A stretch of 64,000 nt of DNA from Candidatus Uhrbacteria bacterium RIFOXYC2_FULL_47_19. Lineage in GTDB: Bacteria > Patescibacteriota > Patescibacteriia > SG8-24. A program made the translations under genes and the position numbers. This document shows positions 4,494 through 27,329 of this stretch, one piece after another. The stretch covers positions 10,712-74,711 of the forward strand of contig MGFG01000020.1 in the NCBI GenBank assembly GCA_001791745.1. Direction: 5' to 3'. The number at the start of each line of letters is the position of its first letter. The first letter of the stretch is position 1. The notes beneath the pieces are model-generated. The model was given only the letters and a program-made list of their open reading frames with translations. It did no database searches and was not told where the DNA came from.

Positions 4494-6182
4494 TTGTCTT
4501 TAATCTCCATGTGTATGAAAAGAATCACGATTCTGTCACTTCTGCTCCTGCTGACGCCCTTACTCTCGCCCGGTCTCGCCGCCGCATCTGTCGCCGAAAG
4601 GATCAAGGGAAAGATCGTCTTGCAGGTGGAAAGCCATGGCGAGGCTTATTATGTCTCTCCGGACAATCTTCGGAGATACTATTTGGGCCGACCTCAGGAT
4701 GCTTTTGACATAATGCGGACCATGGGATTGGGAATAACCGACGTCAATCTGGCCAGAATTCCCAAGAGCACAGACGGCTGGACGGGCGACGCGTCCCTCG
4801 TCGGTCACGTCAGGGGTAGGATACTGCTTCAGGTTGAGCAGCACGGCGAGGCTTGGTACGTCTATCCGGACAACGGCAAGAGATACTTTTTGGGACGTCC
4901 TAGCGACGCCTTTAACATCATGAGCAGTTTGGGGCTCGGTATTTCGACTAGAGATCTTTCGACTATCGTCGTGGGTACGATAGCCACAGGTCAGACAGGA
5001 GCGACAGGTGGAGACGGTCAACCAGTACCGGCTGACGAAGAAGATGCGTCAGGCGATGCCGATAGCGGCGATACAATTGTCAACACAAACACTGAAGATC
5101 CCAATTCTGTTGTCGTCAGTAGCGTTTCCGCCCTGGTGAGCGCCATAGAAAACGCCAACGATGGCAGCAAGAAGACGATTCTGGTCGAAGACGGAACCTA
5201 CACGCTAGGCAACATGCTCTGGGTTTCGGCGGACGGGGTTACGGTAAGAAGCCGTTCGGGAAACCGCGAGGCGGTTATCCTGCAGGGCGACGGGATGACC
5301 GGCAGCGTTTCGCATATCTTTAACGTCGCCGGAGACGATTTTACCGTCCGTGATCTGACCCTAAGGAGGGTTGCCAATCATGCAATCCAACTGCAGGTAG
5401 ATGTCGACGGTCTTACTGTCGATAATGCTCATTTCTTGGACACGGGCGAGCAGATGCTGAAGGTCGCCTATGACGCTGGGAACATGTCGGCAAGTTCCGA
5501 TGGTGGTCTTGTTGAAAATAGTTTGTTTGAATACAGCGCCGGCCACGGTCCGCAGTACTACATCGGCGGTGTTGATGCGCACAATGCCAAGAATTGGATT
5601 GTCCGTGACAACGTATTCAAAAACATCAAGAGTCCTAGCGACGACATCGCCGAGTTCGCCATTCACTTTTGGTCTGAGTCGGCGAATACCATAGTCGAGA
5701 GAAATACAATCATGAACTGCGACCGGGGGATCGGCTTCGGTCTCGGCGACCGAGGTCACGTCGGCGGGATCATTCGTAACAATATGATCTACCATGACAG
5801 CTCGGAGGATTTCTCCGACGTGGCGATCGGACTCGAGGATGCCAGAAATTCGCAGGTCTACAACAATACGATCTTTATGGTCAACAGCTATCCGAACGCC
5901 ATTGAGTATCGTTTCGGAAGCACGACAGGGGTACAGATTTACAACAACTTAACTAATCGGGCTATCATCGCCCGCGATGGGGCTTCAGGAACGGTCGCAA
6001 ATAACATTACTAGTGCTCAGGTTGATTGGTTTGTTTCTCCATCGTCGGGAAATCTTCACTTGAGCAGCTCTGTTTACTCAGTCGTCGATCAAGGGCGAAA
6101 CGTTTCCGGATTAACTAATGATTTCGACGGCGAGTCGCGACCGAAGGGCGGCGGAATAGACATCGGCGCAGACGAGCTTTAA
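4494..6182 (+). CDS. Secreted right-handed parallel beta-helix (pectin-lyase-fold) protein with two N-terminal 40-aa repeats
   Basis: The signal peptide is MKRITILSLLLLLTPLLSPGLAAA, so the probable start is the ATG at 4515. There are two copies of the HGEAYYVSPDNLRRYYLGRPQDAFDIMRTMGLGI-type repeat. Beta-helix rungs are visible as NNMIYHD, NNTIF and RNTIMNCDRGIGFG. Confidence 0.75.
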   Translation: MSLISMCMKRITILSLLLLLTPLLSPGLAAASVAERIKGKIVLQVESHGEAYYVSPDNLRRYYLGRPQDAFDIMRTMGLGITDVNLARIPKSTDGWTGDASLVGHVRGRILLQVEQHGEAWYVYPDNGKRYFLGRPSDAFNIMSSLGLGISTRDLSTIVVGTIATGQTGATGGDGQPVPADEEDASGDADSGDTIVNTNTEDPNSVVVSSVSALVSAIENANDGSKKTILVEDGTYTLGNMLWVSADGVTVRSRSGNREAVILQGDGMTGSVSHIFNVAGDDFTVRDLTLRRVANHAIQLQVDVDGLTVDNAHFLDTGEQMLKVAYDAGNMSASSDGGLVENSLFEYSAGHGPQYYIGGVDAHNAKNWIVRDNVFKNIKSPSDDIAEFAIHFWSESANTIVERNTIMNCDRGIGFGLGDRGHVGGIIRNNMIYHDSSEDFSDVAIGLEDARNSQVYNNTIFMVNSYPNAIEYRFGSTTGVQIYNNLTNRAIIARDGASGTVANNITSAQVDWFVSPSSGNLHLSSSVYSVVDQGRNVSGLTNDFDGESRPKGGGIDIGADEL

Positions 6183-14561: not shown

Positions 14562-15191
14562 TTGTTCTCACGACAAACTATAATAAGGAGGTCTGTCTTG
14601 AGTCAGTCCTTTATAGTTTTGGGAAATTTGATTTTGATGGCCGTTTTCGTCACTTATTTCAATCAAGTACGTCGTGGGCTATCAGTGCCCAATCCGTCAA
14701 CTTGGTTGTTATGGACAGTGGTAGGAGTGATGAACGCAGCTAGCTACTTTCTCGTGGTTCATGGAAACCTGTGGCAATCGGCCTATGTGTTGCTATCGAC
14801 TGTCGGACTGATTGTGATCTGCGTTTATGCCGTTGTCCGTGGTAAGTTTGGTCGAATCGGCTGGACTGAGATCGTTTGTCTGGCGTTAGCTGTAGTTGTA
14901 GGTGTGTTATGGAAAGCCACCAGTGATGCGGTTGTAGCCAATTTGAGCCTTCAGCTGATTTTCATAATCTCGTTCGTGCCAACAGTGAGTGGCCTACTGA
15001 AGCGTACTCTCAAAGAGAAAGCGTTGCCGTGGGCTATGGGAGTTACCTCCTATATATGTACGGTCGTCGGAATACTAACTTCGGTGTCATTTGATCTGAC
15101 TGCCTTGGCCTATCCTGTAATCAATGGGATCGTTGGTAACGGAACAGTCCTGGTCGTAATTCTCTTGACTGGAAGACGCTCGGAAGTCTAG
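14562..15191 (+). CDS. Hypothetical multi-pass membrane protein
   Basis: Five to six hydrophobic helices are present. The likely start is the TTG near 14597, after the RBS TAAGGAGG at 14584-14591. Confidence 0.55.
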   Translation: MFSRQTIIRRSVLSQSFIVLGNLILMAVFVTYFNQVRRGLSVPNPSTWLLWTVVGVMNAASYFLVVHGNLWQSAYVLLSTVGLIVICVYAVVRGKFGRIGWTEIVCLALAVVVGVLWKATSDAVVANLSLQLIFIISFVPTVSGLLKRTLKEKALPWAMGVTSYICTVVGILTSVSFDLTALAYPVINGIVGNGTVLVVILLTGRRSEV

Positions 15192-15419
15192 ACGGTCGAC
15201 AATCAGTAGTATCTAATTCGCATCTTTCATTGGTGCGATTTTTTTAAAACAAACATACAATGATTTATCCACTGTTTTTTAAATTCAAAAAAAACTTTGC
15301 AAGTCGTGCTATACTGATAGCACTTAATTTCTCCTAATTTGCATTAGCCTAAAATTTGATTGATCGCATGACTAAATCGTGCTTTCAGTTTTTCAATTTA
15401 GTTATAATTTTCATAAATT

Positions 15420-18400
15420 ATGAAACTCAGTCCATTTCTAAAAAGAGTATCTCGCCGACCGGCTGAAACTCTACTAACCTTAGTGCTTGTCATTGCGTCG
15501 AGCGGTCTAGGTTCGTTGATCGCTCCGTTGCCGGCTATGGCCGCCTCGACGATTACGGTCAGTACCAGTGGACTGATCAATGGTGGTTTTCCCGGGGCTC
15601 CGATTCCGGCCAGCTCACCGGCCAGCGCCGTACTGAAGTTGTCAGTGACGGCTTCTTCGGCCCTACAGACTCTCAATTCGGTTACAGTGAACTTTAGTGG
15701 TACTGGTTTGGTTCAGGCTGACCTGGCCGATATCGCTACTGATGATAGTTCCGGTGTTGCTTTATATGACGATGAAGGTGGTACAGCCGGAAACTTCGAT
15801 GGCACTGACTCGGTCATTACTCTGGCTGCCTCTCCGGATTGGACCGGTGAGACGACCAACATCACGCTGACACCGGCGACGCCAGTTCCATTAATCAGCG
15901 GTACACCGGTGATTTTTTATGTAGCCATTAGAACTTCAGCTTTGCTAGTCAACGATCATCGTATAGTCGCTTCCGTTCTAGCCAATGGAGTAGTAACTTC
16001 TGATGGTAGTGGTCCAGCTACTACCTTTAATGCTTTTGAATTACGGGCCGACACTGCTCCAGCACAGATTGTGTCGGTTGGTGGTTTTGTCGGTAGCGCA
16101 TCGGTTAATGTCAGATTTAATAAACCAGTACAAAGGGTTGGTGGTGGCAGTTTGATTGCAGCCAGCTTTACTTATGTAGATGGTGGTGGTGCTGCTCAGA
16201 CTATATCTTCTGTAGCTCATACCCCAGGTCAGGATTTTGCTACATTGACCATGAGTGCTGTTTTGGATGCAGGGGATATCGACGGCACTCCGGCGACTAT
16301 AGCCGCTGCTTCTAGTGCCATAGCTGACATGGGTGGCAATGTTATCGGAACCGATGCTGTGGAAATGGCCAGTGCAATCGAAATTTCTACTTCGACCATT
16401 CCGACAGCGATTATTGGAACGACCTACACCACGATTAGTCCACTGGTGGCCTTCTCGGCGATTGGTGGCACCTCTCCTTACATCTTTGAATCAGCCGGAG
16501 AGCCGGATACAGAGGTACTGACCAACGCTGGACTTTCTTTAGTTGATGATGGAGGTACTTACAAGATAACTGGTACGGTATTGAGCGTTCCGGGTAGTTA
16601 TCCTTTATACATTAGGGCTACAGATTCGGCCGGGACACCTCAGGAGGCGGTCCGGCGGTACAATCTGAACGTTGGTACGTCCGCTGGAGCAGTGCCGGGC
16701 GTTACTAGCGTTGTGCCGGGCGGTGCGCCATTAGGTGCGTCGTCTTTGGCAGTTGCAATTACGGGCTCTAATACTCATTTTTCTGGATCAAGCACGATTC
16801 AGTTTATAAGCGGAGGTTCGGCCGACGCCAACGTTACAGCTACAATTTCGTCGTCAACCACTACAACACTTAACCTTTCGGTTAGTGTAGCCGGGGGCGC
16901 CACTGTTGGGCCACACGATGTACGCGTTACGACCGGAGCCGAGATCGTCGAGATGCCGGGTGGCTTCGGTGTGTTTCCGGCCGGTGATAGTGGGTTAAAT
17001 CTCCAAAGTCCAACCGATGCCGCGACCGGCATATCGATACCTCCTACCTTCAACTTTAGCCCCAGCACTAACCCGTCAGCGGCCACTTACCGCGTTACAC
17101 TAAAGTCGACATCTAATTTTTCTGGGGCCGCTTTATGGGATTACGCCTTTCCTAAGCCGGCTGATGCAGAGAATAGCAATGGTAGCCACTGCAACTTGAC
17201 TGGCTGCAATGTGAACTATGGGGCCGGCTCATTCCGGATTATTACTCAGCCGACTCCGCTTGAGCCGAACACCACCTATTATTGGCAAGTGCGGACCTAC
17301 AGCCAGGCACCATCTGCTGTTAGTGACGCTGTGGCCCCGCTTGAAGGGACTCCAGTTAGAGGTTTCACTACGATTTCGTCGGTCATGGATATCATGCCGC
17401 CGAATATCATGCATCGGCCAGTCTTTCAGACTACGGCCAGCACAGACCTGACTTTGTTGGCTCGTGTCGATGATAACTTTGCCTCGCCAACCTCTACCCC
17501 AGCCCTGACAACTACGGTTAATTACTGTGTGGGTGTCGATTGCGATCCAGGGACCGGTACGCAGGCGAGTGGTACCTCGATCGGTAATGGATTTTTTACC
17601 TTCACTATTCCGGGTGCATCGGTTGGCATTGCCGGCACTATAGTTAGGTATTATCTTGGTGCCTCGGACGGCACTAATACGGCGATCTTTAGGGATATGG
17701 ATGAGACTCCGTTCCGGGTAACATCAATCGCCGCCGGTGTTGGTACTATTACTGGTTCAGTCGTCAATGATAGCGATGAATGTCCGGAAGGTATTCAAGG
17801 TGCCACGGTTTTCGCTGAAGGTACTGGTTTCATGACCACCACAGACGGATCGTGTGAATATACTTTGTCCGGACTTCCAACCGGTATCTATGACATCGTG
17901 GCCTTGAAGACTGGTTATGCTGACCGGATCATTAACGGCATACCAGCCGGCTCCACCAGCATAGTTTTCAGCCTGCCAATGGGTTTCGGTGGTGGTTTCG
18001 GCGGCGATGGCACCAGACCTCATGTCATGTTTACTGGTCCCGGTGAGAACTCGACTGGCATTCCAGGCGGCGATTCCTACTTCAAGGTGTTTGTGGCCTT
18101 CGATAAGCCCATGAGTCAATCTTCGATCACGGATACTGGTAATTTGACCATCAACGAGATTAATCCGGCTACAGGGGAGCTGACCAACATAACGTCAAAA
18201 GGAGACTGGGACTATTACGCCTCTTCCGCCGGTGTGGATCGTGTGCCGCCGGCTTCTAATATGGCGGTGTTTTCGTTGTCGCAGGTTGGTTGCGATGGAT
18301 CTCCTTGTACGCTAGGTGACGGCAAGACTATCGCTGTGATTGTGACCGACTCAGCTACCGACACAGCCGGCAATTCAGTCATGGGAAATCAGCCGGATGG

Positions 18401-21400
18401 TTCGTTCTCCTTCACTTTCTCGACTGGTACCACTTTCTCTGGAAGTTTCGGTGAGGGTGAGGTGTTTGGCTCTGGGGAGTTCATTCCGCCACATGTAATC
18501 GGTATGACTCCACCACCTGGTAGTCTTGATGTGCCAGTTGATCGAAGGGTTGTAGTTAGTTTCTCGGATGCCATGGCGGACGATACTATTGGAACCTATC
18601 TTCTTAAGAGTTACATCAAATTGTATTCAGTGTCTGGGGTGACTGAGACGGACGTTTCATCACTCATTAGTGCTACAACTCTCGACTCAGCCAAGAGGAA
18701 TGCAACTCTGACGTTAACCGGCAGTTTAGCTGCCTCGACCCGTTATCGACTCAAAGTGCTAGGTGGTGCTAAAGCAGCGACTGGACTGACAGTCGGACCA
18801 CCAGAGTCGAGTAGTGCAGTCATGTTCACTGGTGAGTTTAGAACTGGAACTGGCACCGATGTTGGTATACCGACAGTTAATGGGACTTTTCCAGACAATA
18901 CTGCGACCAATGTACCAGTTAATCTAAATGCGGTTAGTATCGGCTTTAGTCGAGATATGGACATGTCAACTATCTCGACAAGCACAGTTTATTTGTCGAT
19001 TGGTTCGACGGCAGTTAATGGTTCGGTTGAATATCGTGCCGCAGAGAGAACGGCCTATTTCGTACCACGTTCGGCACTTACTGCCAGTACTACCTACACA
19101 ATCAATGTGACGACCGGAGCTCAGGCTCTGAACGGAACAGCGATCGCTACAGCAGTAGCGCGCACCTTCACTACTGGTTCGGCCGACGTTTTGGCTCCGT
19201 CGATACAGTTCGGCAACGCTGATGATTTCTCGTTGGCAGTGACCTTCTCTGAGCCCATGAATGCCTCTCGGGCGACTGATACTATTAACTTCACAGCTAG
19301 TGTATTGAAGCCGGCTAATTACGTTCTCAAGTACGCCACCATGGGTGAGGATTCTTCTGCTGGTACGGTCCTGACTGTTCCGGCAGCAGCGACCTTTAGT
19401 TACGATCAGGTAACCAACACAGTCAAAATCGCCGGCTATCATGCCGACGCGATCGATCCGGCGACTCTGCGTGGGAAGGAACTTTATGTCGCAATCACTG
19501 GAGTTAAGGACCTGTCCGGAAATTCGATCACGACTGATGATGGCGCGAACACGGCTAGAATGATGATTTTGAATAGCGCCACTACTCAAGGGGCTCTCGG
19601 TCCGATGGGTATGACCGGCGACTCCTTCTCGGATCAAGGCGGGTTCACACCTGACAATTTTGATTCTGGCACTTTCGGTTTTGCACCACAGGCTGAGGTC
19701 CGTCCATTCAATACCATGCCCGGACAGCTCACGATCTATGGCATACGCTTGCCGATCTCCCGGCAGATTCCGGCTTCTGGGGCTGTTGTTGTGACCTTCC
19801 CTATTGGCTTCGACGTTTCGGCCGCCAGACAGGATGTCAACAGTCCGATGCGCCAGGACTTGAATGGTCCAGGAACGGGAAATGTGACCTTTAAGTGCGC
19901 CACAGCCGGTGCGCCGACCGGAGCATCTTGTTCCGGCACGGCCAACGCCGACGATGCTGGGGTGGCCCAGGGTGGACTAGCTGGCGATGGTGTGGTGGTC
20001 GACACGGCCTCACGCAGCGTCAAGATTTACCTTTCTGCAGCGACCAACGTCGAAGGACATGATTTCTTGACCATCGATATCGCCGGAATTAGGAATACGA
20101 CCGTACCCAAGGACATGAACACTTCGGGTTACACGGCTGATATTAAGACCAAGAACGGCACTACACTTCTAGAGACTGCCACTTCGATGCCATTTTTTAT
20201 TCAGTCTGGTGGTACGGGATCGTTCACTTTGGGCGGTACTATAACTGCGACCGGCAACGTCTCTAGTGGCACTATGCAGGTCTACCTAATGTCGCCGCTC
20301 ACCGGACCGCTCGAGACCACTTCGACTAACTTCTCTGGTGGTGAGACTGCAACTTACAGCTTTACCGGACTTCCAGCCGGTGAATTCATGATTTCGACCG
20401 ATCAGCTGGTGCTGATCGATGCGGCTGAATATGTCGGTAAGGCCAATCCGGAACGGATCGGACTCACAGCCAACAAAACTTACAATTTCACCATGGCCAG
20501 TGCTTCGTCCGGTGGGACTGTGGTTACGGTCAACTTGACCGGTCCAGCTAATGAACCGTTGGACGTGTTTGCTGGTTCGCCGACTGGATTTCGCGTCAAA
20601 CAGGTGACATTGAACGGTGGAGGAACTGGTAGTACTACACTCAATCTACCGAACGGCGAGTGGAACATTGGTGTCGGCCCGCAGACACCTAAGGGTTTCT
20701 CCGGTCCGCCGCCGGCACCGTCTTACCTACCGCCACGTAATAAACAGGCCACTATTGCCAATCCAGTCTGTACAGTTGACGGCACAGTGGGTTGTACCAT
20801 CGCTTTTGCCTTAACAACCTCGGATAAGACCATTCGCGGTTTGGTTAAGGATGGTTCCGGCAAGGTCATGGCCAACGCTGAGGTGTTCGCCTACTCGCCT
20901 AACGGTGGTTTCGGTACCAATGCTACAACCGCTACTAACGGTGCGTTTACACTGAACGTAGTCAGTGGCAGCTACGTTGTTGGCGCATTTATTCCGGGCA
21001 TGCCGACCTCTAAGGAAGTGCCAGTAGTGGTAACGGACCATGCTACGACCTATCTGTTAATAGATGGATCGTCGACAGCGATTACACCAGCCGCTGCGGC
21101 TACTTCCTTTATCCTTAAGGTTGCTAAGCCGGACTACACCATCTCCGGACGTGTGACCGACGGCACGAGTATTGTGCAGGGTGCTTCAGTCTACGCTTAT
21201 CGAACCAATGGTCCGGGTCATGCCGATGTGATGACCGATAGTTCCGGTAACTACACTTTGTACGTCGGCGCCGGAACCTGGAACGTTGGCGCGTTCCTAC
21301 CGCAGTACGGTCGACTATCTGAACAGTCGGTGACCGTCTCGACCGCCAATGTCACTAGCATCAACTTTTCTCCATCCCAAACCGGCACCGGAACTTTCTA

Positions 21401-23960
21401 CACTGTTTCCGGTACGGTGACCTCGGGTGGTACACCAGTATCTGGCGCCTTTGTCCGGCTCATGGGTAACAACACCAACAATGAGGTGATGACTGGTGTC
21501 GACGGCACTTACAGCATGAAGGCCCCGTCCTGCGCCACGGCAGGTTGTTACACACTTAAGGCCTTCGCACCGAGCATTGGCGAGTTCCCGCCGCTCGCAG
21601 CCTTCAGTGTGACTAGTGACACAGCTGGCAAGGACTTTACACTTGCCGCACCTCGAACCTTGACCATAACTTTTTCCGCATCGGTCGCTCGCGGTTTCGT
21701 CGATATGTTCGCCACGAATGGTTCAGGTGCGCGCATCGACGTCTCTAATTCGACGGTTGCCACGTTGACCCTACCGGATGGTAATTATCGGGTTCGTGTG
21801 GACGTACCTGGAACGGCGATCGGTCCGTCTAATATATCTGGCGACGGTTACAACAGTACCACTGGTGTGTTCACAGTTTCGGCGGCCAACACTGCTCTGA
21901 CAGTCACATTGCCGACTCGTCGGACCATCACTGGTAAAGTGACTGACAGCACGGACAACATTGCCAATGCTTGGGTCGAGATTGTCAATCCGACTACCGG
22001 TGTCCACTTTGGTACGCAGACCAATTCGACCGCCGGTCCGGATACTAACTTCAGTTTCAGCGTGGCTGATGGTACTTACTTCATCAATGCGATGAAGCCC
22101 GGGTACTTCCGACAGCCGACTACGATCATTGTCGGAGCTGACACCACGACCCAGACTCTGATTATGACTGCAGCCACAACTACCATTGCCGGACAGGTAC
22201 TGATCGGCGCAACTGGTGCACCCAACTCTTTCGTCCGTGGTGAAAAGATGGGTGGTGGCTTCTCCGGTACTCAAGCCGATGCTAACGGTAACTATGTACT
22301 ACCAGTCGATTCTGGAGAGTGGAAGATTTACGCTGTAGCTGAGGGTTATCAGGAGGCCGGTTACGCCAGCAATCCGATCGACGTTAGTAGTGGTTCGGTA
22401 ACGGGTAAAAATATTACCCTCACCACAGCCGTCAACATGGCCTCACCTAGGTCCAGACCGATCACACCATCCTCGGGTGGAACCATCGACGACCAAGACT
22501 CCGGTCTGAGACTCAATGTGCCGGCCAACGCCTTGGGCACATCTAACTCATCCGGAACCTTAACAGCTAGGGAAACCAACAACGTCCGCTCTACTGATAC
22601 TGCCTACCTGGTCATGGTCTACGACTCGCAGACCGAGACTTACGTTCCGGCAGCCAAGGAACTGTCGGCCACAGATAGCGATGGCAATCCGATTACCAAT
22701 CTTGAGGGTTCGGTCAGTTTGGAGATGGACTACACCATCGCTGAGCTGGCAGCCACTCGGTCAGCGCTCGACTCGTCGATTGATACTCGGACCGAGGCAG
22801 ATATGCTGACCATGGCTTACTGGGATGCGACCAATCAGAGCTGGACACCGCTCCCTAGCACGGTGACTTACCGTGATTCCGATGGGGACATTGTCAACGA
22901 GCCGGAGGAGGACCTATCGAATGTCTCGATCGTTACGGTGTCGGCGACCACAAACCACTTCTCGCTCTATGCCCCGATCGTTTCGACTGATCCGTCAGCA
23001 CCGAGCACTCCGTCTGGTTTGGCAGCGAGCGCAACCAGCACCTCTCAGATAAATCTGAGCTGGACACAGACTTCCGGTGCTACTGGTTACGACATTTATC
23101 GGAGCACCACCGTGGGTGGCACTTATTCTCGTCTGGGTAGCGAGCCGACCGTCAGTTCCGGTTCGACGGTCACCTACAGTGACACTGGTCTCTCGGCCTC
23201 GACGACCTACTATTATAAGATTTCGGCGATCAACGCGAACGGTGAGTCGGCGTCGACATCTGCAGTCAGTGCCACAACCAGTAGCGCAGGTGGAGGCGGC
23301 GCAGGTGGAGGTGGCGGTTCAAGCGGTTCGGTTATTCCGCCAACTACCACACCGGTCACGGATGCGTCCGACCCCGACAGTTTCGTTGATAACTCATCTT
23401 CATTCCCGACCGGAACACATGAGCGTGTTGCTTACAATGAGGCCGAAATGGCGGCTCCGTCTTCAGACACTACTGGAGTCGGTGTCTACAGCTCTGAAGT
23501 AGCAATCTTCAATACACCAACCATCGATGTCGATAAGGGTATTTTGCCTCCACCAGCCGACGTCTGGTTACCTTGTGTCGGCGGCGGTCTGATCAAGACC
23601 CAGGATGGTTCGGCTGTCTACTACTGTGGCAAGAATGGACGACGCTACGTCTTCCCTCATCAGAACATTTACTCGACCTGGTACGGCAATTTCGACAGTG
23701 TCGAGTCAGTTCTAAATGAAGACCTAGCTGCAGTGCCATTGGCTGGCACCGTCACCTATCGTCCGGGCGTCAAGATGGTTAAGATTCAGTCCGATCCCAA
23801 GGTTTACGCTGTGTCTAGAAACGGTCTACTTCGCTGGGTGACCAGTGAAGAGATCGCTACTGAGCTTTATGGTCAGAATTGGAATCGACAGATTGATGAT
23901 GTAAATCCGGCCTTCTTCTTCTCCTACACGATCGGTGATCCGATCGAGGCAGCGGAGTAA
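15420..23960 (+). CDS. Giant secreted/surface protein (2,846 aa) with Ig-like, carboxypeptidase-regulatory-like and FN3 domains
   Basis: The N-terminal signal peptide has a hydrophobic core followed by AMAAS. Multiple SbsA/Big-type Ig-like repeats are present, such as PxVxxxxPxxGSxDVPVDRRVVVSFSDAMADDTI. CarboxypepD_reg-like units are present, such as TISGRVTDGTSIVQGASVYAY...SGNYTL. An FN3 domain is visible at LSWTQTSGATGYDIYRS...YYYKISAINANGES, followed by a Gly-rich linker. The C-terminal repeat module is shared with the 4494..6182 gene product. Confidence 0.85.
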   Translation: MKLSPFLKRVSRRPAETLLTLVLVIASSGLGSLIAPLPAMAASTITVSTSGLINGGFPGAPIPASSPASAVLKLSVTASSALQTLNSVTVNFSGTGLVQADLADIATDDSSGVALYDDEGGTAGNFDGTDSVITLAASPDWTGETTNITLTPATPVPLISGTPVIFYVAIRTSALLVNDHRIVASVLANGVVTSDGSGPATTFNAFELRADTAPAQIVSVGGFVGSASVNVRFNKPVQRVGGGSLIAASFTYVDGGGAAQTISSVAHTPGQDFATLTMSAVLDAGDIDGTPATIAAASSAIADMGGNVIGTDAVEMASAIEISTSTIPTAIIGTTYTTISPLVAFSAIGGTSPYIFESAGEPDTEVLTNAGLSLVDDGGTYKITGTVLSVPGSYPLYIRATDSAGTPQEAVRRYNLNVGTSAGAVPGVTSVVPGGAPLGASSLAVAITGSNTHFSGSSTIQFISGGSADANVTATISSSTTTTLNLSVSVAGGATVGPHDVRVTTGAEIVEMPGGFGVFPAGDSGLNLQSPTDAATGISIPPTFNFSPSTNPSAATYRVTLKSTSNFSGAALWDYAFPKPADAENSNGSHCNLTGCNVNYGAGSFRIITQPTPLEPNTTYYWQVRTYSQAPSAVSDAVAPLEGTPVRGFTTISSVMDIMPPNIMHRPVFQTTASTDLTLLARVDDNFASPTSTPALTTTVNYCVGVDCDPGTGTQASGTSIGNGFFTFTIPGASVGIAGTIVRYYLGASDGTNTAIFRDMDETPFRVTSIAAGVGTITGSVVNDSDECPEGIQGATVFAEGTGFMTTTDGSCEYTLSGLPTGIYDIVALKTGYADRIINGIPAGSTSIVFSLPMGFGGGFGGDGTRPHVMFTGPGENSTGIPGGDSYFKVFVAFDKPMSQSSITDTGNLTINEINPATGELTNITSKGDWDYYASSAGVDRVPPASNMAVFSLSQVGCDGSPCTLGDGKTIAVIVTDSATDTAGNSVMGNQPDGSFSFTFSTGTTFSGSFGEGEVFGSGEFIPPHVIGMTPPPGSLDVPVDRRVVVSFSDAMADDTIGTYLLKSYIKLYSVSGVTETDVSSLISATTLDSAKRNATLTLTGSLAASTRYRLKVLGGAKAATGLTVGPPESSSAVMFTGEFRTGTGTDVGIPTVNGTFPDNTATNVPVNLNAVSIGFSRDMDMSTISTSTVYLSIGSTAVNGSVEYRAAERTAYFVPRSALTASTTYTINVTTGAQALNGTAIATAVARTFTTGSADVLAPSIQFGNADDFSLAVTFSEPMNASRATDTINFTASVLKPANYVLKYATMGEDSSAGTVLTVPAAATFSYDQVTNTVKIAGYHADAIDPATLRGKELYVAITGVKDLSGNSITTDDGANTARMMILNSATTQGALGPMGMTGDSFSDQGGFTPDNFDSGTFGFAPQAEVRPFNTMPGQLTIYGIRLPISRQIPASGAVVVTFPIGFDVSAARQDVNSPMRQDLNGPGTGNVTFKCATAGAPTGASCSGTANADDAGVAQGGLAGDGVVVDTASRSVKIYLSAATNVEGHDFLTIDIAGIRNTTVPKDMNTSGYTADIKTKNGTTLLETATSMPFFIQSGGTGSFTLGGTITATGNVSSGTMQVYLMSPLTGPLETTSTNFSGGETATYSFTGLPAGEFMISTDQLVLIDAAEYVGKANPERIGLTANKTYNFTMASASSGGTVVTVNLTGPANEPLDVFAGSPTGFRVKQVTLNGGGTGSTTLNLPNGEWNIGVGPQTPKGFSGPPPAPSYLPPRNKQATIANPVCTVDGTVGCTIAFALTTSDKTIRGLVKDGSGKVMANAEVFAYSPNGGFGTNATTATNGAFTLNVVSGSYVVGAFIPGMPTSKEVPVVVTDHATTYLLIDGSSTAITPAAAATSFILKVAKPDYTISGRVTDGTSIVQGASVYAYRTNGPGHADVMTDSSGNYTLYVGAGTWNVGAFLPQYGRLSEQSVTVSTANVTSINFSPSQTGTGTFYTVSGTVTSGGTPVSGAFVRLMGNNTNNEVMTGVDGTYSMKAPSCATAGCYTLKAFAPSIGEFPPLAAFSVTSDTAGKDFTLAAPRTLTITFSASVARGFVDMFATNGSGARIDVSNSTVATLTLPDGNYRVRVDVPGTAIGPSNISGDGYNSTTGVFTVSAANTALTVTLPTRRTITGKVTDSTDNIANAWVEIVNPTTGVHFGTQTNSTAGPDTNFSFSVADGTYFINAMKPGYFRQPTTIIVGADTTTQTLIMTAATTTIAGQVLIGATGAPNSFVRGEKMGGGFSGTQADANGNYVLPVDSGEWKIYAVAEGYQEAGYASNPIDVSSGSVTGKNITLTTAVNMASPRSRPITPSSGGTIDDQDSGLRLNVPANALGTSNSSGTLTARETNNVRSTDTAYLVMVYDSQTETYVPAAKELSATDSDGNPITNLEGSVSLEMDYTIAELAATRSALDSSIDTRTEADMLTMAYWDATNQSWTPLPSTVTYRDSDGDIVNEPEEDLSNVSIVTVSATTNHFSLYAPIVSTDPSAPSTPSGLAASATSTSQINLSWTQTSGATGYDIYRSTTVGGTYSRLGSEPTVSSGSTVTYSDTGLSASTTYYYKISAINANGESASTSAVSATTSSAGGGGAGGGGGSSGSVIPPTTTPVTDASDPDSFVDNSSSFPTGTHERVAYNEAEMAAPSSDTTGVGVYSSEVAIFNTPTIDVDKGILPPPADVWLPCVGGGLIKTQDGSAVYYCGKNGRRYVFPHQNIYSTWYGNFDSVESVLNEDLAAVPLAGTVTYRPGVKMVKIQSDPKVYAVSRNGLLRWVTSEEIATELYGQNWNRQIDDVNPAFFFSYTIGDPIEAAE

Positions 23961-24126
23961 GTTGGTGTGAATTAGATAGAACGGCCCCAGAGTATGGGGC
24001 CGTTCTTGTTAGATAAGACAATCTACTTCTTCTCGTTCCTACAACTAAATTTGGTTGTAGTTGCCAAACCTTTGTCGATTTAGGATCATGTCTAAGTGAC
24101 ATAGTTTAAACCTTTGCCCAATTAAT

Positions 24127-25260
24127 ATGGATTTTGGAACAGTTGTTATTTGGATCGTTGTTTTGGTCGTTGTAGTTGGTTTCGGTGGTCGTTATATTTG
24201 GCGCATGAAAGTGCGTCGTTTAGTCGGTTTTTCTCAAGAGGAGTTCGTCCGTGATTTGACCGAGGAGGCCAGGAATGGACATCTTGATCCGGTCATTGGG
24301 CGCAATGAAGAGGTGGAAAGAATTATTAATATTTCTGCTCGTCGCACTAAAAATAATCCATTGCTGATTGGTCCACCTGGCGTGGGTAAAACTGCGATCG
24401 TTGAGGGTTTAGCTAGGCGAATTATTGACGGTGACGTTCCGGCGCAGCTTTTAGGAAAGCGGGTAATGGCTCTCAATTTAGGTGAACTTATTTCTGGCAC
24501 TAGTTTACGCGGTGAGTTGGAGGGTAGATTTCAAAAATTTATCGCCGATTTAGAAAGTCGACCGAAGATGACTATTGTGTTTATTGATGAGATTCACATG
24601 ATTTCGCAGGCTCGTGGCACTGAAGGTGGTTTGGATTTAGCGGACATGATCAAACCTGCATTGGCTCGTGGAGATGTCTCGGTGATTGGAGCTACGACTT
24701 GGGATGAGTATCAGCGTACACTTAAATCTGATCCGGCCTTGGATCGAAGATTCCAGCCGGTTTTAATTAGTGAACCTTCAGTCGAAGAAACACTTAGTAT
24801 TCTGCGTGGAGTTAAGGGTGTTTATGAGGAACATCATGGTGTGTTGATTAGTGATGAGGCTCTACAGCGTGCCGTTGAAATGACAACCAAAATGGTTACC
24901 GATAGGTATTTACCAGACAAGGCTTTGGATGTTATTGATGAGGCTGCAGCCAAGGTTTCGATTGATACTTCACCCGGACAATTGGCCTCCCTTGGTGTGG
25001 TTGATGTAGCCGCGAAAAGAAAAGTAGTTGAGCGTATGAGTAAAGAGGCTAAGTTATTAGCGGTAGAGATAGAACATTTAGAAAAACTACGTGGGTCATT
25101 TCCTGATGATTCATCTATTCGACTGGCTAGAGAGGAGCTCGGCCGACATTTGAAACAGATTGAAAATGAACGCAAAACTGTTCGGTCCGATAGTGAACGG
25201 TCGACAGTTACAGCTGCTGATATCGACGCTACGATCGAGTCATGGGGAGTGCAAAGTTGA
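24127..25260 (+). CDS. Membrane-anchored AAA+ ATPase homologous to ClpB/ClpA nucleotide-binding domain 1 only
   Basis: An N-terminal TM helix (VVIWIVVLVVVVGFGG) is present. The sequence is then colinear with ClpB NBD1: GRNEEVERIINISARRTKNNPLLIGPPGVGKTAIVEGLA (Walker A), IVFIDEIH (Walker B) and ALDRRFQPV. The start of the M-domain coiled coil follows, but there is no NBD2. Confidence 0.8.
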   Translation: MDFGTVVIWIVVLVVVVGFGGRYIWRMKVRRLVGFSQEEFVRDLTEEARNGHLDPVIGRNEEVERIINISARRTKNNPLLIGPPGVGKTAIVEGLARRIIDGDVPAQLLGKRVMALNLGELISGTSLRGELEGRFQKFIADLESRPKMTIVFIDEIHMISQARGTEGGLDLADMIKPALARGDVSVIGATTWDEYQRTLKSDPALDRRFQPVLISEPSVEETLSILRGVKGVYEEHHGVLISDEALQRAVEMTTKMVTDRYLPDKALDVIDEAAAKVSIDTSPGQLASLGVVDVAAKRKVVERMSKEAKLLAVEIEHLEKLRGSFPDDSSIRLAREELGRHLKQIENERKTVRSDSERSTVTAADIDATIESWGVQS

Positions 25261-27329
25261 AGGAATTAAATAGGATATCAATTGGGACCGTGGGACTGAC
25301 GGTAGTTACTGCGGTCCTTCTTTTTGTTCCATTACCATTGTTTTGTCGAATAGTAGTTGTGGTGATGTTTTTAGGTTGGTTGGGTTTTCGTTTGGGTCGA
25401 TTTTTAGTGGGTAGTCGTGAGGGTGTTATAACTAGGCTTGTCTTTGGTTTAATGATTGTCTTGTCGTGGTTAGTGGTTAGTCAGTCAATAGTTTATTACC
25501 TCGATCGAATATCAAGATTCAGTCTATTAGTAGGTCTGTTACCCTTGGTCTTTTTTGCTATCCACCGTTTTAATCTCACTGAGACCACTAATCAGACTAT
25601 CATCAAGCCAAAATCATCGATTTGGAGTCGTTGGTTGTCTATAGGTATTCTGGTTGGCGATGTGGTTTTATTTTTTTCTTTCTTATCTGTACGTACCGAC
25701 GAAGCACTGCGAAGTCCATGGGAGGTAGTCTCTTGCTCAGCTTTATTAGCCTTTGTGTCTGTGACTTGGATGTTATTGTTGTTGTGTCGCGAGCCGGACG
25801 CCCCGTTTAAGCGTTCTTTGACTGCGTTACATTTGTTCGTTGCTTATTGTTTATCGGAGACAGTCATGTCACTTGGTTTCGGTTACGATCCCTTTATTCA
25901 TCGTACGGCCGAGGCACACATTGCAGAATTCGGAAATCTTTTACCGAAAAGTCCGTACTATATCGGGCATTACGTATTAATAGTTGCGCTACATTGGTTG
26001 TCCGGTCTTTCAGTAGATGTAATTGATCGATGGTTAGTGCCATTCCTGGCTCCACTAACTTTTCCTTGGGTAGCTAGTTTTGGTTTGAAAAAAGTTTGGG
26101 GCATGAAAGGAAGTGTCGAGCTTTGGATGCCTCTGATACTATTTTTGCCCATGCTGCCGCTGACCTTCACTGTGCCACATGCTCTGACGGTCGTGTTTCT
26201 GCTTTGGTTGGTCTTTTTAGCACCGACAGTCATAAGTTCTAGTCCACTACGTTCATTGGTTATCGGTCTATCTGTGTCGGCTATGATGATTCATCCGCTA
26301 TTGGGTGCAGTGGCAGTCGGATTAATAGCATCATTGTTTTTGTGTCATCGATTCCGGTTCGGTGGGTTGCTATCTGTGATTATCAATGCGATTTTGTTGC
26401 CAATCTTATTTTTCATTCATAACTGGTTAAAAGGCGACTTGCCATTTAATTTTGTCGGACTGTTATCGGATTGGGAACGTTTTATCGCTCTTTTTCGGAA
26501 TCCTTTTTTCTCTGACCTAGAGACGTCTTTTTCGCTTTTGGATTTACTGTATATGTACAGAATGATTATGCCAGCTATTTTTGTGGCTATAGTCGTGATT
26601 GGTGTTATTTTTTTGGTACATCGAAAGATGAAATCATCGGTGATTCAAGCCTATATTTTGACAGCCGTCGGTCTTCTGTTAGCCATCTTTGTTCTGAGTA
26701 CCAGTGTGACGCTATCTGGTATTGTGCCTGGAGAGCAATTGGAATTCTCTTTGAGATTGAAACATGCATTTGGGGTGCTGTTACTTCCATTGTTTTTCTT
26801 TGGTCTAAAATCTCTACTAGATCGTTATCTTAGAGATTCGTTAACTGCTACGGTAGCTGGTTTACTGTTGGTCGTAGCGATAGTAGCTTCGATCAGTTGG
26901 TATCTGACGTATCCACAAGCGAACCATATAGCCAACCGTTCTGGTTGGTGTCTGGGTCGCGCTGATGTCGAAACTATCGAGATAATTGCCAAAGAGGATA
27001 ACGGTCGTCCGTATTTGGTTCTATCCAATCAGATGCTGTCTGTGGCCGCCCTGCGAACCAATGGCTTTGATAATTTTTTCTATGCCTTACCGGTTACTGG
27101 TCGTACTTATGAGTATTACTTGGCTATTTCTCATTCACGACGCAATAGGGGAGTGTTCGAAGAAGCTTTCACTGAGTTTGGGGTAGCACGAGTCTTTTAT
27201 GTGGTGCATGACTATGAATCTGATTTTCATTCTATTGTGGACCAATTGGAGTCTATTTCTGATCAAAGTTGGGTTGTAGCCGATGGCCGAGCCTTTGTTT
27301 TTCTTTTTGAAGATATGGCTTATAATTAG
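25242..27329 (+). CDS. Large polytopic membrane protein (695 aa, at least 12 TM helices)
   Basis: The protein is hydrophobic for about 560 aa and has a soluble C-terminal domain of about 130 aa. It overlaps the upstream AAA+ gene by 19 nt. Confidence 0.65.
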   Translation: MGSAKLKELNRISIGTVGLTVVTAVLLFVPLPLFCRIVVVVMFLGWLGFRLGRFLVGSREGVITRLVFGLMIVLSWLVVSQSIVYYLDRISRFSLLVGLLPLVFFAIHRFNLTETTNQTIIKPKSSIWSRWLSIGILVGDVVLFFSFLSVRTDEALRSPWEVVSCSALLAFVSVTWMLLLLCREPDAPFKRSLTALHLFVAYCLSETVMSLGFGYDPFIHRTAEAHIAEFGNLLPKSPYYIGHYVLIVALHWLSGLSVDVIDRWLVPFLAPLTFPWVASFGLKKVWGMKGSVELWMPLILFLPMLPLTFTVPHALTVVFLLWLVFLAPTVISSSPLRSLVIGLSVSAMMIHPLLGAVAVGLIASLFLCHRFRFGGLLSVIINAILLPILFFIHNWLKGDLPFNFVGLLSDWERFIALFRNPFFSDLETSFSLLDLLYMYRMIMPAIFVAIVVIGVIFLVHRKMKSSVIQAYILTAVGLLLAIFVLSTSVTLSGIVPGEQLEFSLRLKHAFGVLLLPLFFFGLKSLLDRYLRDSLTATVAGLLLVVAIVASISWYLTYPQANHIANRSGWCLGRADVETIEIIAKEDNGRPYLVLSNQMLSVAALRTNGFDNFFYALPVTGRTYEYYLAISHSRRNRGVFEEAFTEFGVARVFYVVHDYESDFHSIVDQLESISDQSWVVADGRAFVFLFEDMAYN

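What the first reader, a model, noticed from the sequence alone, without database searches (positions are those of the whole stretch)
15420..23960. A 2,846-aa multi-domain surface protein (8.5 kb, 13% of the window)
It combines a signal peptide, repeated Ig-like (SbsA/Big) domains, carboxypeptidase-regulatory-like domains, an FN3 domain, a Gly-rich linker and the terminal repeat module. Giant adhesin-like proteins are candidates for host or episymbiont attachment in small-genome bacteria. The AT-rich 230-bp leader (15192-15419) contains a TATACT -10-like element.
Basis: partly seen in the sequence, partly recalled or inferred. Interest (0 to 1): 0.55.

Follow-up and report, generated by a model that had tools for sequence, protein, structure and literature searches.

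The report
Giant wall-tethered surface protein, self-cleaving joint
The 8.5-kb gene is real and encodes a 291-kDa secreted chain of about 25 beta-sandwich domains from an Uhrbacteria-like (CPR) bacterium, and near its cell-wall anchor it carries a previously unnoticed domain that looks like the self-cleaving GAIN/MAIN "breakaway joint" of adhesion receptors.

Summary
ORF 15420..23960 (+) is intact and encodes 2846 aa with no DNA repeats. Pfam finds CarboxypepD_reg x6, Big_5 x3 and fn3. A signal-peptide-like N-terminus, a Gly/Ser linker and a two-repeat C-terminal module are also present.

- **Fixed-architecture family.** It is not a repeat-expansion adhesin. At least 38 Patescibacteria proteins (46-93% identity) are collinear with residues 1-~2620, with no indel above about 12 aa.
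- **Swapped tail.** Only the ~200-aa tail after the linker differs. Relatives carry SLH x3, PG_binding_1, SH3b or unknown modules there. This marks the tail as a wall anchor. This protein's tail matches no Pfam model, yet it hits 5283 protein clusters, including M23 peptidases.
- **Self-cleaving domain.** Residues 2338-2528 fold (pLDDT 92) into a beta-sandwich. Its best solved-structure matches are GAIN (CD97, BAI3) and ZU5 domains. An invariant H2513-F-S2515 sits in the turn between the last two strands. This matches the HX(S/T) site of the recently described microbial MAIN domains.

Best reading: a Sec-exported, wall-tethered fibre that cleaves itself at F2514|S2515, so the 252-kDa ectodomain is held non-covalently and can be released. 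Cleavage, wall binding and adhesion are all inferred. It is a new member of a known kind, of moderate interest.

The parts
15218..15238 (+). Terminator-like hairpin plus T-run that closes the upstream gene (14562..15191). It marks the start of an independent transcription unit.
   Evidence: 7-bp stem, TTTTTTT tail.
15307..15315 (+). A second perfect TATAAT lies at 15403-15408.
   Evidence: Read from the sequence. The sigma-70 scan found no full promoter, so this is a consensus match only.
15420..23960 (+). CDS of the giant protein: 2846 aa, 291 kDa, pI 4.45, T+G+S+A = 45%.
15420..15542 (+). Signal-peptide-like N-terminus (res 1-41, predicted cleavage AMA|AS).
   Evidence: Hydropathy. Homologues share the pattern. 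By inspection only; SignalP was not run.
15543..16409 (+). Conserved N-terminal region (res 42-330) with no known family. Its second half has a Big_5-like 'F.KPV...DMGGN' pattern (by eye).
   Evidence: No Pfam hit in any of 11 orthologues, no PDB sequence match, 66% mean column identity.
16410..17744 (+). Res 331-775: beta-sandwich domains, He_PIG-like and CARDB/IPT-like, then an FN3-like domain at 560-665. Invariant Cys pairs at C591/C596 and C703/C708.
   Evidence: He_PIG (3.4e-6) and CARDB (9.2e-5) each hit in one orthologue. Weak FN3 cross-hits. Invariant columns.
17745..17999 (+). CarboxypepD_reg domain 1 (res 776-860).
18012..19574 (+). Block of Big_5 (SbsA-type Ig-like) domains, res 865-1385. 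Pfam-supported copies lie near 1023-1126 and 1150-1252, plus one more stretch that the tool does not locate (about 865-1000 is my inference from the internal HMM hit, iE 0.0037). A further Big_5-like unit near 1260-1385 was recognised by eye.
19617..20219 (+). Highly conserved region of unknown fold (res 1400-1600; 63-68% mean identity to homologues).
   Evidence: No Pfam hit apart from one SdrD_B match in one orthologue. No PDB sequence match.
20817..22424 (+). Array of six CarboxypepD_reg/transthyretin-like domains (res 1800-2335).
   Evidence: Internal HMM hits at 1800-1884, 1906-1993, 1992-2075, 2086-2153, 2165-2250 and 2254-2335.
22431..23003 (+). GAIN_B/ZU5/MAIN-like beta-sandwich (res 2338-2528).
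   Evidence: AF2 model pLDDT 92.1, pTM 0.87. Top Foldseek PDB hits are CD97 GAIN, BAI3 GAIN and ankyrin ZU5. No Pfam or PDB sequence match.
22956..22964 (+). H2513-F2514-S2515, the predicted autoproteolysis site (cleavage F|S). It lies in the turn between the last two strands of the domain.
   Evidence: H and S are invariant and position 2514 is F or L in 39/39 sequences. Distant relatives keep H-[FL]-[ST]. Strand positions. Motif and position match MAIN/GAIN as described in 10.64898/2026.05.12.724683.
22995..23279 (+). Fibronectin type III domain (res 2526-2620).
   Evidence: Pfam fn3 E 8.5e-8. PDB 3mpc Fn3-like E 1.3e-8.
23280..23585 (+). Gly/Ser linker (2621-2637) plus a low-complexity spacer (2638-2722). 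Homology among orthologues ends here.
23586..23951 (+). C-terminal tandem two-repeat module (res 2723-2844), the putative cell-wall anchor.
23979..24005 (+). GC-rich hairpin (GAACGGCCCC / GGGGCCGTTC, 7-nt loop) 19 nt after the stop codon. Terminator-like with a weak T tract.
   Evidence: Read from the sequence. The strict scan did not call it.

Best explanation
This is a Sec-exported, cell-wall-tethered giant fibre of an Uhrbacteria-like Patescibacterium. After signal-peptide removal, about 25 beta-sandwich domains (res 42-2337) project away from the cell. These comprise novel N-terminal domains, He_PIG/CARDB-like domains, an FN3-like domain, Big_5 copies and CarboxypepD_reg copies. Next to the membrane-proximal end sits a GAIN_B/MAIN-like domain (2338-2528). 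It most likely cleaves its own backbone between F2514 and S2515 by the His-activated Ser N-to-O acyl shift known for GAIN and MAIN domains. The 252-kDa N-terminal fragment would then stay bound non-covalently, because the new N-terminal strand S2515-LYAPIV remains inserted in the sandwich. The 34.5-kDa C-terminal fragment consists of that strand, an FN3 domain, a ~100-aa flexible Gly/Ser/Thr/Pro spacer and a two-repeat module. It would be held in the wall by the module, which binds peptidoglycan or a wall glycopolymer. Pulling on the ectodomain, for example when it is bound to a host cell or a surface, could extract the strand and release the fibre without tearing the wall. SHOWN: ORF integrity, domain content, family collinearity, tail swapping, the fold and motif of the 2338-2528 domain, and the distribution of the tail module. 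INFERRED: export, the signal-peptide cleavage site, autoproteolysis, wall binding, adhesion and force-dependent release.
For: (1) Surface location. The N-terminus is signal-peptide-like. SecA and a Mur ligase lie in the same window. The protein is acidic and Thr/Ser/Gly/Ala-rich with only 16 Cys, and all recognised domains are extracellular beta-sandwiches. (2) Anchor. In 38 collinear orthologues, homology stops at the Gly/Ser linker. The tail after it is SLH x3 (E 7e-51), PG_binding_1 (E 8e-15 and 1e-6), SH3_3 x2 (E 1e-21) or an unknown module. This protein's module also occurs after M23 peptidase domains and next to PG_binding_1. It sits at the N- or C-terminus of 5283 cluster representatives with varied ectodomains. 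Each repeat is a 4-strand + 2-helix unit, like the EccB1 repeats, which are its best though weak PDB matches (E 0.056). Those repeats were themselves likened to the wall-binding PlyCB (PMC4769845). Phage hits include amidase, CHAP and lysozyme proteins at weak scores. (3) Autoproteolytic joint. The model is confident (pLDDT 92). The top solved-structure hits are GAIN of CD97 (E 3.4e-4, prob 1.00) and BAI3, and ZU5 of ankyrins. H-[FL]-S is invariant in 39/39 sequences. H2513 is one of only 3 invariant His among 16. Relatives at 28-36% identity switch Ser to Thr (DHFT, DHLT, GHLT, NHFT), as expected for a nucleophile. The motif lies in the turn between the last two strands. The order signal peptide, adhesion domains, MAIN, anchor is what Brogan & Rudner report for about 15,000 MAIN proteins, with cleavage proven at HF|S in YfkN. 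An unrelated 1968-aa protein (P0210) has the same cassette of MAIN-like domain (EHFS), Gly linker and this module.
Confidence: 0.58

Rival explanations
1. It is a conventional non-cleaving giant adhesin or sheath protein. On this view the 2338-2528 domain is just another beta-sandwich spacer of ZU5-like topology, and H-F-S is conserved for structural reasons.
For: Modest TM-scores. No sequence-level match to GAIN, GPS or ZU5 models. Background conservation in the family is high, with 7.5% of columns invariant. From general knowledge, ankyrin ZU5 domains, which are among the hits, are not autoproteolytic.
Against: Four of the 12 invariant columns of the 191-residue domain cluster in T-x-H-x-S-x-x-A. 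Ser and Thr exchange, while His and the hydrophobic residue between them are kept, at 28-36% overall identity. The motif position between the last two strands and the placement just before the anchor both match the experimentally cleaving MAIN proteins.
Confidence: 0.25
2. It is the S-layer (lattice-forming) protein of this bacterium.
For: Some orthologues carry SLH x3 and are named S-layer homology proteins. Big_5 is the SbsA S-layer Ig domain. The composition is acidic, Thr/Ser/Ala/Gly-rich and Cys-poor. Length is strictly conserved. The gene is monocistronic with an AT-rich leader.
Against: Predicted patescibacterial S-layer proteins are about 640-730 or 1130-1275 aa, not 2850 aa (supplement of 10.1101/2024.05.28.596244). 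A linear string of about 25 beta-sandwich domains with a single terminal anchor and a release-type domain looks like a fibre, not a tile. SLH domains also anchor many non-S-layer proteins. No lattice test was possible.
Confidence: 0.12
3. It is an extracellular enzyme (peptidase or glycosidase), as the database name 'carboxypeptidase regulatory-like domain-containing protein' might suggest.
For: Homologues carry that name. About 1,000 residues have no assigned family (42-330, 666-775, 1400-1800).
Against: CarboxypepD_reg is a non-catalytic transthyretin-like sandwich. No catalytic family was found in Pfam or NCBIfam for the query or in 11-16 orthologues of each unassigned region. PDB sequence profiles found none either.
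Confidence: 0.03
4. It is an assembly artefact: a chimeric or collapsed repeat ORF.
For: Multi-domain repetitive proteins are prone to this. The gene's GC (52.8%) exceeds that of its flanks (43-47%).
Against: There are no DNA repeats. The protein aligns in one HSP to 38 homologues from independent assemblies, including one at 93% identity over its full length. The higher GC follows from the Gly/Ala/Thr/Pro-rich composition.
Confidence: 0.01

Closest known systems
MAIN-domain cell-surface proteins, e.g. Bacillus subtilis YfkN (Brogan & Rudner, bioRxiv 2026, 10.64898/2026.05.12.724683)
   Same: Order of signal peptide, large adhesion ectodomain, GAIN_B-like sandwich, then wall anchor. An HX(S/T) motif (here HFS, as in YfkN) in the turn before the last strand. 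Large size. SLH or wall-binding anchors in relatives.
   Different: The lineage is Patescibacteria, which the paper does not mention. There is no sortase signal. The anchor is a module with no Pfam model. An FN3 domain and a ~100-aa spacer lie between the domain and the anchor. No enzymatic domain is present. Sequence homology to YfkN MAIN was not tested, and cleavage is unproven.
GAIN domain of adhesion GPCRs (CD97/ADGRE5 9mqr and 8ikj; BAI3 4dlo)
   Same: Best solved-structure matches to the 2338-2528 model (E 3.4e-4 to 3e-2, prob 0.77-1.00). H-hydrophobic-S/T precedes the last beta-strand. The ectodomain is rich in adhesion domains (mechanism as summarised).
   Different: No helical GAIN_A subdomain, no 7TM, and none of the GPS cysteines. 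TM-scores are only 0.39-0.46. No sequence-level match.
ZU5 domains (ankyrin-B/G/R: 4d8o, 3ud2, 6m3q, 6m3p)
   Same: Similar beta-sandwich (E about 2e-2, prob 0.92-0.99, TMq 0.42-0.47). From general knowledge, ZU5 domains of PIDD, UNC5CL and NLRP1-FIIND cleave at HF|S or SF|S.
   Different: Those are cytoplasmic eukaryotic modules. The ankyrin ZU5 domains that were hit do not cleave. Pfam ZU5 does not match.
SLH-anchored S-layer and surface proteins with SbsA-type Ig (Big_5) domains
   Same: Big_5 domains are present. Orthologues carry SLH x3 at the same C-terminal position. The composition is acidic and Thr/Ser-rich.
   Different: This protein has no SLH. It is 2-4 times longer than predicted patescibacterial S-layer proteins. 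No evidence of lattice formation.
EccB (ESX type VII secretion) periplasmic repeat domains, the PlyCB-like fold
   Same: Each tail repeat is a ~55-60-aa unit of 4 strands and 2 helices, arranged in tandem. EccB1/3/5 are the top PDB matches.
   Different: Scores are weak (E 0.056, TMq 0.38). There is no sequence similarity, and peptidoglycan binding by EccB1 is itself only proposed.
Repeat-expansion giant adhesins (e.g. Ebh, SiiE, LapA/Bap type; from general knowledge)
   Same: Size, beta-sandwich content, surface location.
   Different: Those are built from many near-identical tandem repeats whose number varies. This protein has no DNA repeats, divergent domains and a fixed domain count across at least 38 orthologues.

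Membership tests
MAIN (microbial GAIN-like autoproteolysis-inducing) domain proteins | GAIN_B-like beta-sandwich fold | tested here: met
MAIN (microbial GAIN-like autoproteolysis-inducing) domain proteins | Conserved HX(S/T) motif (X hydrophobic) in the beta-turn before the last strand | tested here: met
   H2513-F-S2515 lies between model strands 167-174 and 179-185. It reads H-[FL]-S in 39/39 family members. All 17 more distant relatives examined keep H-[FL]-[ST].
MAIN (microbial GAIN-like autoproteolysis-inducing) domain proteins | Architecture: signal peptide, adhesion or enzyme domains, MAIN, cell-surface anchor | tested here: met
   The anchor role of the tail is inferred from SLH, PG_binding_1 and SH3b at the same position in orthologues.
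MAIN (microbial GAIN-like autoproteolysis-inducing) domain proteins | Sequence homology to YfkN MAIN (the family was defined by PSI-BLAST from YfkN) | not testable with these tools
   No YfkN or MAIN sequence was obtainable here. No Pfam or NCBIfam model covers the region. A word-indexed profile search found only a fragment of the same protein family.
MAIN (microbial GAIN-like autoproteolysis-inducing) domain proteins | Actual cis-autoproteolysis with the fragments staying associated | not testable with these tools
   Requires expression of wild type and S2515A, or proteomics.
S-layer proteins (SLH-anchored) | SLH domains | tested here: not met
   No SLH in this protein. SLH x3 is present in orthologues P0020, 21, 27 and 33-36.
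S-layer proteins (SLH-anchored) | Self-assembly into a 2D lattice; dominant envelope protein | not testable with these tools
   Indirect only: predicted patescibacterial S-layer proteins are far shorter.
Sortase-anchored (LPXTG) surface proteins | C-terminal LPXTG-like motif, hydrophobic segment and basic tail | tested here: not met
   A regex search found no LPX[TSA][GAS]. The C-terminus is ...GDPIEAAE, and the only hydrophobic 19-mer is the signal peptide.
Big_5 / SbsA Ig-like domain (PF13205) | Pfam match above the gathering score | tested here: met
   83.4 bits against a cutoff of 23.6, in 3 stretches.
CarboxypepD_reg (PF13620) | Pfam match above the gathering score | tested here: met
   121.1 bits against a cutoff of 32.3, in 6 stretches.
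Repeat-expansion giant adhesins | Many near-identical tandem repeats, variable in number between strains | tested here: not met
   No DNA repeats. The domain count is fixed across 38 orthologues, with indels of about 12 aa or less.

The most novel reading that the evidence does not exclude
This orthologous family is the principal host- or substrate-attachment fibre of Uhrbacteria-like CPR bacteria. It would be equipped with a force-sensitive, autoproteolytic GAIN/MAIN breakaway joint. It would be plugged into the wall by an interchangeable anchor cassette that tracks each lineage's wall chemistry. The module with no Pfam model used here (over 5,000 clusters) would be the general patescibacterial wall anchor, shared with peptidoglycan hydrolases and perhaps with the ~1,200-aa candidate S-layer proteins. 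That would give a molecular handle on how episymbionts attach to and let go of hosts, and would extend GAIN-type mechanochemistry to the CPR.
Probability: 0.25. Interest if true: 0.75.

Novelty: new member of a known kind. Interest (0 to 1): 0.5.

Why it matters
How CPR bacteria build their envelope and hold on to other cells is largely unknown; the Parcubacterium genome paper states that the envelope of all CPR studied remains unclear (PMC5220378). This gene offers three concrete, testable handles:
- a conserved ~290-kDa surface fibre with a fixed architecture;
- a probable self-cleaving GAIN/MAIN-type joint, which would extend a mechanism shown so far mainly in Bacillota and in animal adhesion GPCRs to the Patescibacteria;
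- a very large domain family with no Pfam model that behaves like a wall anchor and could be used to list the patescibacterial surface proteome.

If none of the inferred steps holds, it is simply one more large multi-Ig hypothetical surface protein.

Tried and rejected
- **NCBIfam** on the whole protein: no hit.
- **PDB sequence searches.** The whole protein matched only FN3. Family profiles of 2338-2528, 42-330, 331-775 and 1390-1800 found nothing meaningful.
- **Pfam on orthologues of the unassigned regions:** isolated He_PIG, CARDB and SdrD_B hits only, and no catalytic domain.
- **Conserved synteny:** neighbours differ between loci, so this is a stand-alone gene.
- **Other copies of the tail module** in the window or in 22 related loci: only the giant gene carries it.
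- **Profile search with the MAIN-like alignment** in the word-indexed protein database: one fragment only, so unproductive.
- **Names for the ~1,200-aa proteins** with the module at their N-terminus: all 'hypothetical'. The link to published predicted patescibacterial S-layer proteins therefore rests on size only.
- **Rfam** on the whole window, including the AT-rich leader: nothing.
- **Correction to my recollection:** I remembered that EccB repeats resemble PlyPSA. The paper says PlyCB.
- **Alternative start:** P0001 starts 9 residues later, but the corresponding codon in the window is GTA, so ATG 15420 stands.
- **Recalled resemblance, not used as evidence:** 'YWD..(5)..W ... T.HFS.YA' looks like the GPS consensus 'FW...W..GC...C.C.HLT.FA'. 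This comes from memory and was not tested.
Full report
**1. Observation**

- The ORF listing returns an ORF at exactly 15420..23960 (+), ATG start, 2846 aa. The translation has no internal stop.
- Pfam on the whole protein and on ten overlapping segments gives three families:
  - CarboxypepD_reg: 6 stretches, E 2.4e-35; located copies start near 777, 1804, 1905, 1996, 2169 and 2282.
  - Big_5, the SbsA-type Ig domain: 3 stretches, E 2.2e-23; best-located at about 1023-1126 and 1150-1252.
  - fn3: 2529-2617, E 8.5e-8.
- NCBIfam finds nothing.
- The Gly/Ser linker (2621-2637) and a C-terminal module made of two ~60-aa repeats (2723-2844) are present.
- The N-terminus has a basic n-region and the only strongly hydrophobic segment of the protein, followed by AMA|A. 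No signal-peptide predictor was available.
- The protein is 291 kDa with pI 4.45. T, G, S and A make up 45% of residues, and there are 16 Cys.
- The leader 15192-15419 is 228 nt at 28.9% GC.
  - It starts with a terminator-like hairpin of the upstream gene at 15218-15238.
  - It contains TGCTATACT at 15307-15315 and TATAAT at 15403-15408.
  - The sigma-70 scan found no complete promoter, so the promoter remark is only a consensus match.
- A GC-rich hairpin follows the stop codon at 23979-24005. The gene looks monocistronic.
- There are no direct DNA repeats of 24 nt or more, and only a 15-nt x2.2 repeat in the linker.

**2. Source organism**

- The best homologue is a hypothetical protein of Parcubacteria group bacterium CG1_02_58_44: 93% identity over the full length.
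- A 295-aa partial protein of a Candidatus Uhrbacteria bacterium is 100% identical.
- A scan of GTDB species genomes finds the family in four Ca. Uhrbacteria and in other Parcubacteria/Patescibacteria MAGs. One Peribacteria MAG also has it, and Falkowbacteria have it at 30-36% identity.
- The window also encodes SecA and a Mur ligase. Sec export and peptidoglycan are therefore expected.

**3. A fixed-architecture orthologous family with a swappable tail**

- Thirty-eight proteins of 2692-3044 aa score above 2000 bits.
- Thirty-seven of them align to query residues 1-~2620 in a single BLASTP HSP at 46-93% identity; the remaining one, P0014, gave no BLASTP alignment.
- In a MAFFT alignment, no insertion relative to the query exceeds 11 aa between residues 40 and 2620. 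Mean identity per 50-residue block is 0.41-0.77, and the N-terminal tip (51-150) is at 0.56-0.61.
- Identity collapses to 0.12-0.14 after about residue 2650.
- A Gly/Ser-rich run follows the FN3 domain in most members.
- The tails after it fall into several unrelated classes, confirmed by Pfam on representatives:
  - SLH x3 (E 7e-51);
  - PG_binding_1 (E 8e-15 and 1e-6);
  - two short 'GD.KVYV...G.K.WI' repeats plus PG_binding_1, or plus SH3_3 x2 (E 1e-21);
  - a 'GAGER.GVVNSF...AYSGA.R' domain with no Pfam match;
  - Ig-like repeats;
  - the type found here, shared with P0001, P0002, P0003 and P0019.
- Three of these classes are classical wall-binding modules. The simplest reading is that the tail is the wall anchor and has been exchanged as a cassette.
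- Synteny is not conserved. In the SLH-type genome, the neighbouring genes include two more SLH proteins.

**4. The tail module of this protein**

- No Pfam model matches it.
- Close homologues are mostly gene fragments, but they include two proteins where it follows an M23 peptidase domain and a Gly-rich linker. In one it precedes PG_binding_1. In several it directly follows a signal peptide.
- A profile search of 1.84 billion cluster representatives found 5283 proteins at E<=1e-3 and 2442 at E<=1e-30. The module sits at the N- or C-terminus of proteins of 150-2000 aa.
- In a sample of 55 of these proteins, the partner domains include fn3, various Ig-like domains, Ice_binding, DUF3048, Laminin_G_3, GDSL lipase and beta-helix. 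No shared Pfam family covers the module itself.
- The AF2 model (pLDDT 84, pTM 0.56) shows the same unit of four strands and two helices twice. The halves align at E 0.0026.
- The best PDB matches are the periplasmic repeat domains of EccB1/3/5 (E 0.056, prob 0.85) and an endolysin binding domain.
- The EccB1 paper describes its repeats as a 4-stranded sheet plus two helices, similar to the wall-binding PlyCB (PMC4769845).
- Against predicted viral structures, the best hits are uncharacterised actinophage proteins (E 2e-5). Weak hits include CHAP, amidase and lysozyme proteins.
- Wall binding is thus supported by position, association and a weak fold resemblance, but it is not shown.

**5.

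- Residues 2338-2528 have no Pfam or PDB sequence match.
- I noticed '...TTNHFSLYAP...' at the end of this region and recalled that ZU5 and GAIN domains cleave at HF|S or HL|T, so I tested the idea.
- A 30-sequence alignment gave a confident model (pLDDT 92.1, pTM 0.87), a beta-sandwich whose last two strands are residues 167-174 and 179-185.
- Foldseek against the PDB ranks these hits:

| Hit | E-value | Prob | TMq |
|---|---|---|---|
| CD97 GAIN (9mqr) | 3.4e-4 | 1.00 | 0.46 |
| BAI3 GAIN (4dlo) | 9.8e-3 | 0.98 | 0.39 |
| Ankyrin-B ZU5-ZU5-UPA (4d8o) | 2.1e-2 | 0.99 | 0.44 |
| Erythrocyte ankyrin ZU5A-ZU5B (3ud2) | 2.2e-2 | 0.99 | 0.44 |

- Further CD97 and ankyrin entries follow.
- H-F-S occupies model residues 176-178, the turn between the last two strands.
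- Across 39 sequences, T2511, H2513, S2515 and A2518 are invariant and position 2514 is F (31) or L (8). Four of the domain's 12 invariant columns lie in this octapeptide. H2513 is one of 3 invariant His among 16.
- Relatives at only 28-36% identity keep the motif but often with Thr: DHFT, DHLT, GHLT, AHLT, NHFT, NHLT. Other remote members have HFS or HLS.
- Some tails carry a second copy of the domain: THFT, THFS, DHFT, and one degenerate TNFS.
- A literature search found a 2026 preprint by Brogan & Rudner (10.64898/2026.05.12.724683). It reports the following:
  - GAIN_B-like 'MAIN' domains are widespread in bacteria and archaea.
  - They use a conserved HX(S/T) motif.
  - They cleave between F and S of HFS in B. 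subtilis YfkN. Cleavage is abolished by S-to-A and rescued by S-to-T.
  - The fragments stay associated.
  - The domains almost always occur in the order signal peptide, adhesion or enzyme domains, MAIN, surface anchor (sortase signal, wall-binding domain or SLH).
  - The mean protein size is 158 kDa.
- Patescibacteria are not mentioned in that preprint.
- The protein here fits that description in fold, motif, motif position and architecture.
- An unrelated 1968-aa protein (P0210) repeats the cassette: MAIN-like domain (EHFS), Gly linker, this tail module.

**6. Mechanism proposed**

- The protein is exported by Sec and the signal peptide is removed.
- The domain cleaves itself at F2514|S2515.
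- The 252-kDa N-terminal fragment (42-2514) is retained through the inserted strand S2515-LYAPIV.
- The 34.5-kDa C-terminal fragment comprises the strand, FN3, a ~100-aa flexible spacer and the two-repeat module. The module fixes it in the wall (fragment sizes).
- Load on the fibre could release it.
- The conserved tip argues for a conserved ligand or a structural role rather than an arms-race adhesin.
- All of these steps are inferences.

**7. Rivals**

- A non-cleaving ZU5-like spacer remains possible (about 0.25).
- An S-layer role is less likely (about 0.12). Predicted patescibacterial S-layer proteins are 640-730 or 1130-1275 aa, and this architecture is fibre-like.
- An enzymatic role has no support.
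- Mis-assembly is excluded for practical purposes.

**8. Novelty and score**

- Giant multi-Ig surface proteins are common in CPR genomes, and the MAIN concept now exists. This is therefore a new member of a known kind.
- The added value has three parts:
  - the likely extension of MAIN to Patescibacteria;
  - the cassette-like anchor exchange in an otherwise rigid 2,600-residue orthologue;
  - a wall-anchor-like domain family of over 5,000 clusters with no Pfam model.
- Interest: 0.5.

Noticed in passing
window 4494-6182 (+): A 562-aa secreted-looking protein with a signal peptide. It has two N-terminal ~70-aa repeats ('G.I.LQVE.HGEAWYV.P...KRYYLGRP.DAF.IM..LGLGI'), a Gly/Asp-rich linker, and a C-terminal region with beta-helix-like 'NN.I' periodicity. 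There is no Pfam hit at 1e-5. The repeats give only non-significant matches to the giant protein's tail profile (E about 0.3) and may be another wall-binding module.
   Followed up: partly
proteins P0105-P0147 (not in the window): Dozens of ~1130-1275-aa and ~630-750-aa proteins carry the tail module right after their signal peptide. These sizes coincide with the patescibacterial S-layer proteins predicted in bioRxiv 10.1101/2024.05.28.596244 (1131-1274 and 643-727 aa). The module may therefore be the S-layer anchor of this phylum. All sources name these proteins 'hypothetical', so identity could not be checked.
   Followed up: partly
Neither has an obvious signal peptide.
   Followed up: partly
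window 24127-27329 (+): Directly downstream of the giant gene lies a 377-aa AAA + AAA_lid_9 protein (Clp/Hsp100-like single ATPase module). It overlaps by 19 nt a 695-aa ORF with a hydrophobic N-terminus and no Pfam hit. This neighbourhood is not conserved in the two related loci inspected.
   Followed up: partly
tails of P0011 and P0015; L014 near ORF residue 2971-2988; L017 near 2432-2549; L016 near 2045-2167: Some family members carry a second, smaller GAIN/MAIN-like domain in the tail, ending in THFT, THFS or DHFT. In L016 the His is replaced (TNFS), which suggests one inactive copy.
   Followed up: partly
L008 (CAYIPP010000016.1) and L021 (CAYHWE010000019.1): Two contigs carrying clear members of this Patescibacteria family are deposited as 'uncultured Gammaproteobacteria bacterium' MAGs. 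This is probably mis-binning.
   Followed up: no
window 1-64000: No Rfam family, tRNAs included, reaches its gathering score anywhere in 64 kb. GC ranges from 0.61 (1-2000) to 0.37 (58-60 kb). The giant gene is GC-richer (0.53) than its flanks, which its Gly/Ala/Thr/Pro-rich composition explains.
   Followed up: partly
window 17187-17207 and 17523-17543 (res 590-596 and 703-708): Two invariant closely spaced Cys pairs (H590-C591...C596 in 'SHCNLTGCN'; C703...C708 in 'YCVGVDC') lie in an otherwise Cys-poor protein. They are probably small disulfide loops or a metal site in the unassigned 560-775 region.
   Followed up: no
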